64,000 nucleotides of DNA from a virus. The DNA lies in UHGV virus genome UHGV-0122002; one strand, 5' to 3'. Under the pieces are notes generated by a model. It had not been told where the DNA came from. It was given only the letters and a program-made list of their open reading frames with translations, and made no database searches. The position numbers and the translations under genes were made by a program. How positions within the stretch are numbered: the stretch's first letter is position 1; every line of letters starts with the position of its first letter. Shown here in pieces: positions 60,843 to 61,616 of this stretch.

Positions 60843-61616
60843 TCACCGCAACGGAAAGAGCATTCTTGGTGGACCTGTAGATTGGGATATGAACCCGTTA
60901 CAGGAGAATGCTCTTACCTGTTACGTGCTCCGTTTCGTGGAGCTAACGGCGGGTGATCGGGCCGCACCAGGCTGGACTTATTTCAGCGTTATGCTCATGC
61001 CAGAGAATCAAACTGTGATGGTCGGTGCTGAACTCCGACACAGGGTTGTAGCAAGCCCCGCAAAGCGCGCACTACTGTAGTTGCGGCACATCAGCCTGTG
61101 CATTCACCACAATGTTGAGAACACTGGTTGTCACGCTGCAACGCAACATTTATTCGTAGATTGGGATATGACCCCGTTACGCCAGTGTTCTCAACGTTGT
61201 AGTGCCGGTTACGGTTCCGGCCAGGCCTCTTCCTCAACGGGGTGTTCTCCATACGGACTACCGTTTATTGGTCGTTCCTGCGGTTTATGTTGTGAAGCCA
61301 GATGCTTATCTTCTGGTTGCTTCAAAGAGCTGCACTTCATCACAACGGTAAGAGCACTCGATGCATTTAAGCCAAGCCCCATAAGGGAGAATGCCCTTAC
61401 CTGTTGTGTTGTGATGACCGGTGCTGATCTCCGGCTTGCGGTTATTTCAGACTCTCACGGGCGTTTAATTGCCCCGCCGAACAGCTCTTTTCCGCAATAG
61501 CTGCAATGTCTTTCGCGCATCAGCCTGCGCATTCATCACAACGGTAAGGGTACTTCGTAGGGATTCGAACCCTCTGCCAAGCTCGGCGATCTCCGACGTC
61601 GCAAAATACCCTTACC
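60843..61616 (-). repeat. Array of four tRNA-like structured repeat modules
   Basis: Modules at ~60853-60918, 61110-61199, 61347-61401, 61543-61616: 10-18 bp complementary arms enclosing a T-arm-like hairpin. Confidence 0.55.

What the first reader, a model, noticed from the sequence alone, without database searches (positions are those of the whole stretch)
60843..61616. Array of tRNA-like structured repeats downstream of tRNA-Asn/tRNA-Thr
Four ~70-90 nt modules each have long complementary arms (GGTAAGGG.../...CCCTTACC, 10-18 bp) around a hairpin resembling a tRNA T-arm (GGTTCGAATCC, GGGGTCATATCCC). The last module abuts tRNA-Thr and is exactly tRNA-sized but lacks D and anticodon arms. No ORF explains the region, and motifs CCCTTACCTGTTGTG, GTAGATTGGGATATGA-CCCGTTAC and CATCAGCCTG-GCATTCA recur. 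Possibilities: degenerate tRNA pseudogenes, RNase P/E-processed small RNAs, or decoy substrates for host tRNA-targeting nucleases.
Basis: seen in the sequence. Interest (0 to 1): 0.6.

Follow-up and report, generated by a model that had tools for sequence, protein, structure and literature searches.

The report
Phage RNA hairpin cassettes beside tRNAs
The "tRNA-like repeats" are four (really five) copies of a widespread, unannotated phage RNA hairpin, also present in phage lambda, with a conserved 20-base-pair stem that is probably cut by host RNase III and a swappable tip that sometimes carries tRNA-like pieces.

Summary
The window is a P1-like phage-plasmid. The region lies on the minus strand in the untranslated leader of the C1-repressed ban operon, downstream of tRNA-Asn and tRNA-Thr.

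Each module is a roughly 20-bp stem (CACAAC-A-GGUAAGRGC.../...GCYCUUWCC-GUUGUG) around a 30-60 nt variable cargo. A fifth copy lies upstream of tRNA-Asn.

The same stem, with unrelated cargos, occurs in at least 120 viral contigs, in Enterobacterales prophages and in phage lambda (44787-44862, just after tR'). Fifteen of 24 pairs covary, and G-U pairs fit only the transcribed strand.

Modules sit in leaders after cI-like or Q genes, often directly after terminators, and always co-oriented with nearby tRNAs.

Best explanation: these are RNase III processing hairpins that punctuate long untranslated phage transcripts and release tRNAs and small cargo RNAs. This is inferred, not shown.

They are not tRNA pseudogenes, and the P1 ORFs upl and plp drawn over them are probably spurious. 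tRNA-like elements are enriched in cargos: M4 has D-arm-like and T-arm hairpins, and M1 and M2 have a CAU anticodon-loop-like hairpin. Their role is unknown.

A conserved tmRNA-like tag template (ANDDLMMVAA*) lies just upstream.

The parts
61537..61623 (-). Module M4: canonical stem plus a cargo with a D-arm-like hairpin and a T-arm. It begins 1 nt after the CCA of tRNA-Thr. Inferred RNase III cuts lie near 61615|61614 and 61543|61542.
   Evidence: R1 gives 77.3 bits, E 1.5e-17, over 61515-61623 including the tail hairpin. Fold z -6.1. The cargo type is conserved in 8 contexts.
61515..61536 (-). 3' tail of M4: AUGAAU followed by the small hairpin GCGCA-GGCUGA-UGCGC. M2 has an equivalent hairpin at 61086-61105.
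   Evidence: The tail is conserved after most modules. Four of its 5 pairs show changes on both sides, e.g. GCGCA/UGCGC to GCACA/UGUGC.
61409..61514 (-). Spacer between M4 and M3, a structured element. The block 61407-61543 is 96-98% identical to the pL-leader sequence of lambdoid phages and prophages.
61341..61408 (-). Module M3: canonical stem with a non-tRNA-like cargo. It is absent from reference P1.
   Evidence: R1 gives 40.5 bits, E 7e-8. z -5.8. P1 lacks it through recombination between the arms.
61106..61203 (-). Module M2: unbulged 23-bp stem variant. Its cargo carries a GGG-GUCAUAU-CCC hairpin that resembles a CAU anticodon loop.
   Evidence: Inverted repeat I1, 23 nt, 91% complementary. 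R1 gives a local hit of 37 bits. z -7.3.
60847..60925 (-). Module M1: canonical stem with a cargo carrying a GGG-UUCAUAU-CCC hairpin.
   Evidence: R1 gives 51.3 bits, E 1e-10. z -6.4.
60730..60850 (-). STnc100-like 3' element ending in a hairpin plus U-tract. It is the probable end of the untranslated array.
   Evidence: Rfam STnc100 gives 37.8 bits (cut-off 47), E 3e-6. Sequence.
61625..61778 (-). tRNA-Asn(GUU) and tRNA-Thr(UGU), co-transcribed with the modules.
   Evidence: ARAGORN and Rfam, 74.5 and 72.9 bits.
61979..62065 (-). Fifth ('up') module: the same 5' arm CACAACAGGUAAGGGC with a fully paired 3' arm and no tail hairpin.
   Evidence: Fold -42.8 kcal/mol, z -5.4. R1 gives only about 17 bits, E about 0.1, on both strands, so membership is weak.
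62150..62240 (-). tmRNA-like tag-template element. The frame GCA AAC GAU GAU CUG AUG AUG GUA GCG GCC UAA (62182-62150) reads ANDDLMMVAA*.
   Evidence: Rfam tmRNA_permuted gives 24.1 bits (cut-off 47). It is conserved with coding-type variation in 33 phage contexts.
62230..62336 (-). dicF-like region of P1 with a terminator-like hairpin (62270-62251).
   Evidence: P1 annotation mapped onto the window. Terminator scan.
62434..62479 (-). P_ban promoter region with the C1 operator (ATTGCTCTAATAAATTT). It is the start of the transcription unit.
   Evidence: P1 annotation mapped onto the window with 4 mismatches.

Best explanation
The modules belong to a large family of phage RNA 'cassette hairpins'. 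Each has a conserved stem of about 20 bp with a bulged A, a U.U mismatch and a U.G wobble. The stem is usually followed by GUGAAU and a 5-bp hairpin, and it holds an exchangeable 30-70 nt apical cargo.

The modules are transcribed as part of long untranslated leaders of lytic-cycle operons. Here that is the C1-repressed ban operon of a P1-like phage-plasmid. In lambdoid phages it is the pL leader and the pR' (late) leader.

Proposed mechanism:
- Host RNase III recognises the two-turn helix and cuts both strands around the central GG/CC pairs.
- This chops the leader into pieces and leaves tRNA-Thr with a trailer of about 10 nt that exonucleases can trim.
- It separates the upstream small RNAs and terminator region from the downstream mRNA.
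- It releases each cargo as a stable hairpin RNA of about 55-85 nt with an 11-bp stem.

The short conserved arms also act as recombination points. This explains why related phages carry different numbers and kinds of modules.

Shown here: the structures, family membership, covariation, strand, genomic contexts and homology to the lambda hairpin. Inferred: RNase III cleavage, the cut positions, and any activity of the released cargo RNAs, including the tRNA-like ones.
For: Family: a 17-nt pattern from the 3' junction hit at least 120 viral contigs. About 70 distinct instances share the stem but have unrelated cargos. Model R1 scores M4 at 77.3 bits, M1 at 51.3, M3 at 40.5 and M2 at 37. The antisense strand scores only about 15.

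RNA structure: 15 of 24 pairs change on both sides (68 cells), and 95% of cells are paired. None of 500 shuffles reaches this, and slid controls give at most 5 pairs. Frequent G-U and U-G pairs would be C.A mismatches on the other strand.

Context: tRNAs lie within 1.5 kb in 19 of 120 loci and are always on the same strand. The upstream neighbours are cI-like repressors or Q antiterminators. The downstream neighbours are holins or the first pL gene. A terminator-like hairpin ends within 22 nt upstream in 16 of 60 contexts, against 34 of 1200 random positions.

Lambda: a canonical module lies at 44787-44862, right after tR' (42.3 bits, E 1e-9). RNase III processing sites in the lambda late transcript in vivo were reported by Daniels et al. 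1988 (title cited in PMC7547250).

RNase III rules: in vivo sites favour paired G-C/C-G between the two cuts, flanked by A/U (WSSW), and an 11-nt measuring distance (PMC6212723). The stem has A-GG-U, and 11 stem positions lie above the GG/CC pairs.

Module gain and loss at the arms in P1, Ro157c2, D6 and many plasmids. The region is dispensable in the laboratory (PMC10695390).
Against: No cleavage data were available. The 1988 lambda paper could not be read, so it is my recollection, not a checked fact, that its mapped sites fall in this hairpin.

The lambda leader has another 16-bp AU-rich helix (45085-45125).

The strong sequence conservation of the stem, including the bulged A, the U.U mismatch, the U.G wobble and the tail hairpin, exceeds what RNase III alone needs. 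It may mean that another factor binds.

Processing alone does not explain the enrichment of tRNA-like cargo.

The fifth module fits the model only weakly.
Confidence: 0.55

Rival explanations
1. The cargos are the point, and the stem is only a delivery scaffold. The released tRNA-like RNAs act as mimics, decoys or sponges for host factors that read tRNA. M4 would offer a D/T-arm 'elbow'. M1 and M2 would offer an initiator-like or Met-like CAU anticodon loop. Candidate targets are anticodon nucleases such as VapC-type toxins, tRNA-modifying enzymes, RNase P and the ribosome.
For: T-arm-like hairpins occur in 10 of 60 distinct cargos, against 0.06 expected (maximum 2 in 300 shuffles). The 13-mer GG[GA]NYCAUANCC[CU] occurs in 25 distinct contexts, and 24 of them lie inside module cargos at the same position, with a covarying closing stem. 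The M4-type cargo is almost invariant across four different stem variants. The mEp460 version CGGGCUCAUAACCC equals the E. coli tRNA-fMet anticodon arm as I remember it.
Against: Most cargos (about 75%) show no tRNA-like feature, and lambda's cargo has none. A minimal module with almost no cargo exists (L035). No defence or nuclease gene is linked. The P1 loops UUCAUAU and GUCAUAU differ from real anticodon loops at positions 32 and 38. This rival is compatible with the best explanation rather than exclusive of it.
Confidence: 0.15
2. The arms are selfish or structural DNA-level elements, either recombination linkers or MITE-like palindromes. They spread among phages and shuffle leader segments, and the RNA has no function.
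For: Module content differs between close relatives exactly at the arms. Pieces of the region are shared at 96-99% identity with very different phages. Near-identical arms flank unrelated cargos.
Against: The modules are always co-oriented with the flanking genes and tRNAs. Compensatory changes and G-U pairs fit one strand only. The position relative to terminators is conserved. No transposase or integrase is associated.
Confidence: 0.1
3. The modules act on transcription elongation, as put-like or nut/boxA-like elements, or as an anti-Rho structure that lets RNA polymerase cross a 1.6-kb untranslated leader.
For: The 3' arm of the canonical stem contains UGCUCUUU, the core of the rrn/nut boxA as I remember it. 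The modules sit in antitermination-controlled operons, often just after terminators.
Against: The boxA-like bases are paired in the stem. Covarying variants lose the boxA-like bases (UGUUCUUC, UGCAAUUA, UGUCAUUU). In lambda the module lies downstream of tR', where Q has already acted. Modules also occur in virulent Ackermannviridae and between structural genes.
Confidence: 0.08
4. The modules are decayed tRNA genes (pseudogenes) left behind by a once larger tRNA cluster.
For: They lie next to tRNA genes. D6 has tRNA-Ser and Ro157c2 has tRNA-Tyr in the same region. M4 contains T-arm and D-arm-like hairpins.
Against: ARAGORN finds nothing, and the Rfam tRNA model finds nothing on the modules at E<=10. 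The conserved stem has no counterpart in tRNA and is shared by cargos with no tRNA trace. The stems are maintained by compensatory change, not decaying.
Confidence: 0.04
5. The region encodes the proteins Upl and Plp on the plus strand, as annotated in P1.
For: ORFs of 109 and 139 aa exist, and P1 and RCS47 records name them.
Against: There is no Pfam or NCBIfam match. The C-terminus changes after residue 93 between P1 and this window because of the module indel. RefSeq annotation of most P1-like plasmids calls nothing here. The ORFs run antisense to tRNAs and to covarying RNA stems.
Confidence: 0.02

Closest known systems
RNase III processing sites in the phage lambda late (pR') transcript (Daniels, Subbarao, Blattner, Lozeron 1988, Virology 167:568)
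   Same: Lambda carries a canonical family member at 44787-44862, directly after tR' in the late leader. Its arms are identical to the family consensus.
   Different: I could not read the paper, so I cannot confirm that the mapped sites are in this hairpin. Lambda has one copy without the tail hairpin. The window has an array of 4-5 next to tRNAs. The family, its variable cargo and its spread were not described in anything I could search, and there is no Rfam family.
RNase III cleavage downstream of tRNA metY in the E. coli metY-nusA-infB operon; T4 species 1 RNA at the end of the T4 tRNA cluster (both from my own knowledge)
   Same: In both, a long hairpin follows a tRNA in the same transcript. 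RNase III cleavage releases the tRNA, or a stable small RNA, from the downstream RNA.
   Different: There is no sequence relation. Those are single sites, not a conserved-stem family with exchangeable cargos.
T7 early-mRNA RNase III signals (R1.1 type) and the lambda N-leader and sib hairpins (own knowledge)
   Same: They are intercistronic or leader hairpins with an upper stem, an internal irregularity and a lower stem, and they punctuate phage transcripts. SPN9CC and mEp460 carry family sequence or modules where lambda has its N-leader hairpin.
   Different: The sequences differ, and none carries tRNA-like apical domains. R1 does not detect the lambda N-leader or sib hairpins.
Bacterial Y RNA-like YrlA and the tmRNA tRNA-like domain
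   Same: Each has a long stem carrying a tRNA-like domain with T-arm and D-arm elements but no anticodon arm, as in M4.
   Different: The YrlA model does not hit any module. Its only sub-threshold hit lies on the two real tRNAs. No Ro/Rsr partner is known in E. coli. There is no CCA end or G3:U70, and ARAGORN finds no tmRNA.
Rfam STnc100 / PasD prophage sRNAs downstream of Q (bioRxiv 10.64898/2026.05.13.724894)
   Same: The genomic neighbourhood is the same (the Q-to-lysis leader). The 3' flank of M1 gives a sub-threshold STnc100 match that starts at the shared GGUGAAU motif.
   Different: The match is to the terminator-proximal element after M1, not to the modules, and it is below the family cut-off (37.8 against 47 bits).

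Membership tests
tRNA gene or pseudogene | Cloverleaf recognised by tRNA search tools | tested here: not met
   ARAGORN finds only the 3 real tRNAs. The Rfam tRNA model gives no hit on any module even at E<=10.
tRNA gene or pseudogene | T-arm (5-bp stem, UUCRANY loop) | tested here: met
   Met by M4 only: GAGGG-UUCGAAU-CCCUA. M1, M2 and M3 have none.
tRNA gene or pseudogene | Anticodon arm and 7-bp acceptor stem with a 3' CCA or discriminator | tested here: not met
   M4 has no anticodon arm. Its 'acceptor' is the roughly 20-bp family stem.
Conserved-stem cassette hairpin family (model R1, defined here) | Stem CACAAC-A-GGUAAGAGCAUUG / CAGUGCUCUUUCC-GUUGUG enclosing a variable cargo, on the transcribed strand | tested here: met
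   M4 77.3 bits, M1 51.3, M3 40.5, M2 37 (local). The 'up' module scores about 17 bits, which is inconclusive.
Conserved-stem cassette hairpin family (model R1, defined here) | Pairing maintained by compensatory change | tested here: met
   15 of 24 pairs change on both sides, 0/500 shuffles reach this, and slid controls give at most 5. The alignment was fitted to the model. The independent MAFFT alignment gives 10 pairs, also 0/500.
RNase III processing hairpin | About two turns (>=20 bp) of mostly Watson-Crick helix in a transcript | tested here: met
   Stems of 19-23 bp.
RNase III processing hairpin | Sequence preferences at the cut (paired G-C/C-G between the cuts, flanked by A/U) | tested here: inconclusive
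   The stem has A-GG-U / U-CC-G, and 11 stem positions lie above it, which is compatible with the rules in PMC6212723. The position-specific score table was not available.
RNase III processing hairpin | rnc-dependent cleavage in vivo or in vitro | not testable with these tools
   Only the title of the lambda study is accessible.
Y RNA-like (YrlA, RF02553) | Match to the family covariance model | tested here: not met
   The only hit (25.6 bits, cut-off 69) spans the two real tRNAs, not a module.
tmRNA (one-piece or permuted) | tRNA-like domain with an acceptor stem and CCA, plus a tag reading frame | tested here: not met
   A tag-like frame is present at 62182-62150. However, ARAGORN finds no tmRNA, and the Rfam tmRNA models stay below cut-off (24.1 against 47).
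Type III toxin-antitoxin RNA repeats (ToxI-like) | Tandem near-identical short repeats upstream of a toxN-like gene | tested here: not met
   Module spacing is 196-261 nt, the cargos are unrelated, and the downstream genes are upl/plp-like and SPFH-like ORFs.
Integron attC / MITE | Function independent of the transcript strand, with an associated recombinase | tested here: not met
   The modules are always co-oriented with genes and tRNAs, and the G-U pairs are strand-specific. Recombinase association was not examined beyond the neighbouring genes.

The most novel reading that the evidence does not exclude
The ban leader, and the late leaders of many lambdoid phages, may carry the parts of a phage-specific trans-translation device, or of an inhibitor of trans-translation.

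One part is a tmRNA-like tag template (ANDDLMMVAA* here; ANDDVVLMAA, ANDDLMLMAA and ANDEQFLAVA elsewhere). The other is an anticodon-less tRNA-like domain (the M4-type D-arm plus T-arm cargo), which RNase III would excise from its stem.

In 6 of the 7 M4-type contexts that can be assessed, the tag template lies within 600 nt. In two phages (L229, L279) it follows the M4-type module directly.
Probability: 0.08. Interest if true: 0.85.

Novelty: new variant of a known kind. Interest (0 to 1): 0.55.

Why it matters
If right, the best-studied phages (lambda, P1, P22-like) share an unannotated structured-RNA family that organises the processing of their long untranslated leaders and tRNA clusters.

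Several consequences follow:
- The P1 genes upl and plp would be removed from the protein catalogue.
- The module-by-module variation of this region among P1-like phage-plasmids would be explained.
- A natural 'excise-my-cargo' RNA scaffold would become available.
- A set of small cargo RNAs, some tRNA-like, would become candidates for phage-host interplay.

The neighbouring tmRNA-like tag template is a separate lead that could connect phage lytic transcription with ribosome rescue.

Tried and rejected
- **Rfam.** At curated and relaxed thresholds nothing hit the modules except chance miRNA-hairpin matches.
- **tRNA pseudogene idea.** Rejected, because ARAGORN and the tRNA model are negative.
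- **Y RNA idea.** Rejected, because the YrlA model hits only the real tRNAs.
- **Protein-coding (upl/plp) idea.** Rejected.
- **Conserved tail as an ORF start.** I considered that GUG/AUG-AAU-GCG-CAG might begin a small ORF (MNAQADA...). I rejected this because there is no Shine-Dalgarno sequence and the GCGCA/UGCGC to GCACA/UGUGC change is a compensatory RNA pair.
- **tRNAs enclosed by stem arms**, as rRNA is enclosed by its processing stalk. None were found.
- **Obligatory link between the tag template and a T-arm.** Only 6 of 33 contexts have one within 420 nt.
- **Literature.** Searches for the sequence strings, for P1 ban-leader RNAs and for the lambda late-leader RNase III site gave no usable text. 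The 1988 paper and two reviews are not held. The RNase III target tables of PMC6212723 are not held.
- **RNAalifold on M4-type cargos.** It gave an alternative pairing, but the cargo is nearly invariant, so covariation cannot decide.
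Full report
**What the window is and where the finding lies.** The window is a P1-like phage-plasmid. The region 60700-61900 is 99.8-99.9% identical to phage RCS47 and vB_EcoM-813R1. It matches reference P1 in two pieces because P1 lacks part of it. Three tRNAs are found, all on the minus strand: a CAU tRNA at 59549-59624, tRNA-Thr at 61625-61700 and tRNA-Asn at 61703-61778. In the P1 annotation this stretch lies in the ban operon, downstream of the C1-controlled promoter P_ban and a 'dicF-like region'. 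Both map to the window, at 62434-62479 and 62230-62336. The finding is therefore the minus-strand RNA downstream of tRNA-Thr. P1 also annotates two plus-strand ORFs, upl and plp, directly over it.

On the minus strand the modules are M4 61623-61537, M3 61408-61341, M2 61203-61106 and M1 60925-60847. A fifth module of the same build lies upstream of tRNA-Asn (62065-61979). All five fold with z-scores of -5.4 to -7.3 against dinucleotide shuffles. All are 3-10 kcal/mol more stable as minus-strand than as plus-strand RNA. M4 starts one base after the CCA of tRNA-Thr. In phage D6 a module follows tRNA-Ser in the same way, and in Ro157c2 an M3-type module directly follows tRNA-Thr.

**The modules belong to a large family.**
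- Parts of the region occur in many unrelated enterobacterial phages and in 1354 of 5426 complete E. coli genomes.
- About 70 distinct instances share the stem 5'-CACAAC-A-GGUAAGAGCAUUG ... CAGUGCUCUU-U-CC-GUUGUG-3', usually followed by GUGAAU and the hairpin GCGCA-GGCUGA-UGCGC. The 30-70 nt between the arms is unrelated from one instance to the next.
- A covariance model of the stem (R1) scores M4 at 77.3 bits, M1 at 51.3, M3 at 40.5 and M2 at 37 (local). The 'up' module scores only about 17, and antisense scores are about 15.
- Real hits in species genomes are confined to Enterobacterales: Klebsiella, Kluyvera, Citrobacter, Enterobacter, Pantoea, Rahnella, Rouxiella, Pectobacterium and Acerihabitans. 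The exceptions are two metagenome bins, and 21 hits in unrelated taxa that are all the lambda sequence itself, meaning contamination.
- No Rfam family matches the modules, and the sequence strings occur in no searchable paper.

**It is an RNA structure on the transcribed strand.** In a MAFFT alignment of 45 cargo-trimmed stems, 10 pairs change on both sides. No shuffle of 500 reaches the observed values, and slid controls are far lower. In a model-based alignment of 45 hits, many of them not selected by my search pattern, 15 of 24 pairs change on both sides (68 cells), 95% of cells pair and 0 of 500 shuffles match. Slid controls give at most 5 such pairs. A U.G wobble (31 of 38 sequences), several G-U pairs, a U.U mismatch (24 of 39) and a bulged A are conserved. 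The wobble pairs would be C.A mismatches on the other strand.

**Genomic context.**
- tRNA genes lie within 1.5 kb in 19 of 120 loci, always on the module's strand.
- The commonest upstream genes are cI-like repressors and Q antiterminators. The commonest downstream genes are holins and the first pL gene. The modules therefore sit in the untranslated leaders of the early-left and late operons.
- In 16 of 60 contexts a terminator-like hairpin with a U-tract ends within 22 nt upstream, against 2.8% of random positions. In one locus that terminator belongs to IsrJ.
- Modules also occur in a P22-like phage just upstream of its N-like gene, between structural genes of a Sashavirus, in an epsilon15-like phage and in virulent Ackermannviridae.

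**Link to lambda and to RNase III.** Phage lambda carries a canonical module at 44787-44862, about 10 nt after the tR' terminator of the 6S RNA and upstream of gene S (42.3 bits, E 1e-9). RNase III processing sites in the lambda late transcript in vivo were reported in 1988; the reference is cited in PMC7547250. I could not read the paper. That its sites lie in this hairpin is my recollection and the obvious structural guess, not a checked fact. A second, AU-rich 16-bp helix exists nearer to S.

Independently of lambda, helices of 19-23 bp are the known substrate of E. coli RNase III. The in-vivo rules also fit. Those rules are paired G-C/C-G between the two cuts, flanked by A/U, and an 11-nt measuring distance (PMC6212723). 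The stem has a central A-GG-U / U-CC-G with 11 stem positions above it. The cut positions I give are inferred from this, e.g. 61615|61614 and 61543|61542 in M4.

**What the cargos are.**
- T-arm-like hairpins occur in 10 of 60 distinct cargos, against 0.06 expected.
- M4's cargo reads as a D-arm-like hairpin (GCGA-CGUCGGAGA-UCGC, with the GG of a D-loop), a short linker and a T-arm stacked on the stem. That is a tRNA-like body without an anticodon arm.
- This cargo is nearly invariant in 8 contexts, under four different stem variants. Because it does not vary, covariation cannot confirm the fold, and RNAalifold prefers another pairing.
- M1 and M2 carry GGG-(U/G)UCAUAU-CCC. The related motif GG[GA]NYCAUANCC[CU] occurs in 25 distinct contexts in all fetched DNA. 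Twenty-four of these lie inside module cargos, at the same place, with a closing stem that covaries (GCGUG/CACGC, CUGUA/UACAG, CCGGA/UCCGG).
- The lambdoid version CGGGCUCAUAACCC equals the anticodon arm of E. coli initiator tRNA as I remember it.
- Most cargos, including lambda's and M3's, show nothing tRNA-like, and one module has almost no cargo.

**Not genes, not tRNA pseudogenes.** The plus-strand ORFs have no Pfam or NCBIfam match. The P1 and window versions of 'Plp' diverge completely after residue 93 because of the module indel. RefSeq annotation of most P1-like plasmids calls nothing there. CRISPRi knock-down of trnT, plp and upl in P1 has no plating phenotype (PMC10695390). tRNA finders are negative on all modules.

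**Module turnover.** Reference P1 lacks M3 and the M4-M3 spacer, with the junction inside the shared 3' arm. Ro157c2 lacks M4, with the junction inside the 5' arm. D6 has another set. E. coli plasmids show at least ten coverage classes. The 137-nt spacer between M4 and M3 is 96-98% identical to the pL leader of lambdoid phages such as mEp460, where it also lies between two modules. The arms thus behave as recombination points.

**A neighbouring element worth its own study.** Upstream of the fifth module, the minus strand at 62182-62150 reads GCA AAC GAU GAU CUG AUG AUG GUA GCG GCC UAA, which is ANDDLMMVAA*.
- It is preceded by AAAGUAAAU and has no start codon. Its stop codon lies in the loop of a small hairpin.
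- Rfam's permuted-tmRNA model gives a sub-threshold hit (24.1 bits, cut-off 47).
- Homologous elements in 33 distinct phage contexts carry ANDDVVLMAA, ANDDLMLMAA, ANDEQFLAVA or ANDDQFLAVA. All have 10 codons with hydrophobic-for-hydrophobic changes, and the last Ala codon varies synonymously (GCC/GCU/GCG). That is the pattern of a translated tag template.
- ARAGORN finds no tmRNA in these loci, although it does find permuted tmRNAs in other contigs hit by the same 15-mer.
- M4-type cargos are usually near this element, in 6 of 7 assessable contexts, and in two phages the module lies directly upstream of it. Most tag elements, however, have no T-arm nearby (6 of 33). I therefore treat a split tmRNA-like device as a low-probability reading.

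**Mechanism proposed.** After C1 inactivation, P_ban transcribes this sequence of elements: dicF-like RNA, tag-like element, fifth module, tRNA-Asn, tRNA-Thr, M4, M3, M2, M1 and an STnc100-like terminator element (60850-60730; 37.8 bits against a cut-off of 47).

RNase III cuts each stem. This gives tRNA-Thr a trailer of about 10 nt that exonucleases can trim. It frees the spacer RNAs, which would then begin with a protective 5' hairpin, and releases the cargo hairpins. These steps are inferred. Transcription of the whole unit from P_ban is taken from the P1 annotation and was not tested here; the simple scan found no other promoter and found one terminator-like site after the dicF-like region.

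**Verdict.** It is best filed as a new, widespread variant of phage RNase III processing hairpins: a conserved stem with an exchangeable, sometimes tRNA-like, cargo. The function of the cargos is open. Confidence in the RNase III explanation is about 0.55.

Noticed in passing
window 62150-62240 (minus strand); also L012, L018, L092, L104, L167, L229, L279 and others: There is a tmRNA-like tag template (ANDDLMMVAA* here). It has no start codon, and its stop codon lies in a hairpin loop. It is conserved in 33 phage contexts with five tag variants that show coding-type substitutions. No tRNA-like domain detectable by ARAGORN sits beside it.
   Followed up: partly
L132 (phage lambda) 44787-44862: Phage lambda has a canonical copy of the module immediately after tR', overlapping the hypothetical orf-64. 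It is not annotated in NC_001416 or J02459.
   Followed up: partly
L136, L138, L147, L149, L152, L157, L158, L160, L162, L171, L173, L176, L185, L186, L190, L192, L193, L195, L198, L200, L202: Twenty-one genome assemblies of unrelated bacteria (Pseudomonas, Psychrobacter, Oceanobacillus, Bradyrhizobium and others) contain the lambda module with an identical score. Most are on tiny low-coverage contigs, so this is almost certainly lambda DNA contamination.
   Followed up: partly
window 61407-61543: A 137-nt structured spacer between M4 and M3 is 96-98% identical to the pL-leader sequence of lambdoid phages (mEp460, Stx phages). It accounts for most of the 945 chromosomal matches found in E. coli genomes. 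Its own function is unknown.
   Followed up: no
window 60730-60850 (minus strand): There is a sub-threshold match to the prophage sRNA STnc100 (37.8 bits, cut-off 47). It ends in a hairpin plus U-tract, and is probably the terminator of the untranslated array.
   Followed up: no
window 62230-62336 (minus strand): The 'dicF-like region' of P1 is present with a strong terminator-like hairpin (62270-62251), but it does not reach any Rfam DicF score. Transcription must read through it to reach the tRNAs and modules.
   Followed up: no
window 60751-61500 (plus strand); P1 genes upl and plp: The P1 ORFs upl and plp lie antisense to covarying RNA stems, have no family match and change frame between relatives. 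They are probably annotation artefacts.
   Followed up: yes
L129 11145-11224 (E. coli K-12 Qin prophage, 1641144-1641223, minus strand): A degenerate copy of the module (26.4 bits) lies between cspB and essQ in K-12 and is unannotated. It could be checked in existing K-12 RNase III datasets.
   Followed up: no
L027 9368-9571: The Salmonella-type sRNA IsrJ is the short pR'-tR' transcript of a lambdoid phage, and a module begins 10 nt after its terminator. Overall, 27% of module contexts follow a terminator, against 2.8% of random positions.
   Followed up: partly
window 31111-31301 (minus strand): C4 antisense RNA (75.9 bits) and an isrK-like RNA (60.8 bits) lie side by side, as expected for the P1 immI region.
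   Followed up: no
L204-L306 (viral contigs): The 15-mer AAATGCAAACGAYGA retrieves many viral contigs in which ARAGORN calls permuted (two-piece) tmRNA genes, with tags such as ANDERFALAA, ANDEQFALAA and ANDDSFTPMALAA.
   Followed up: no
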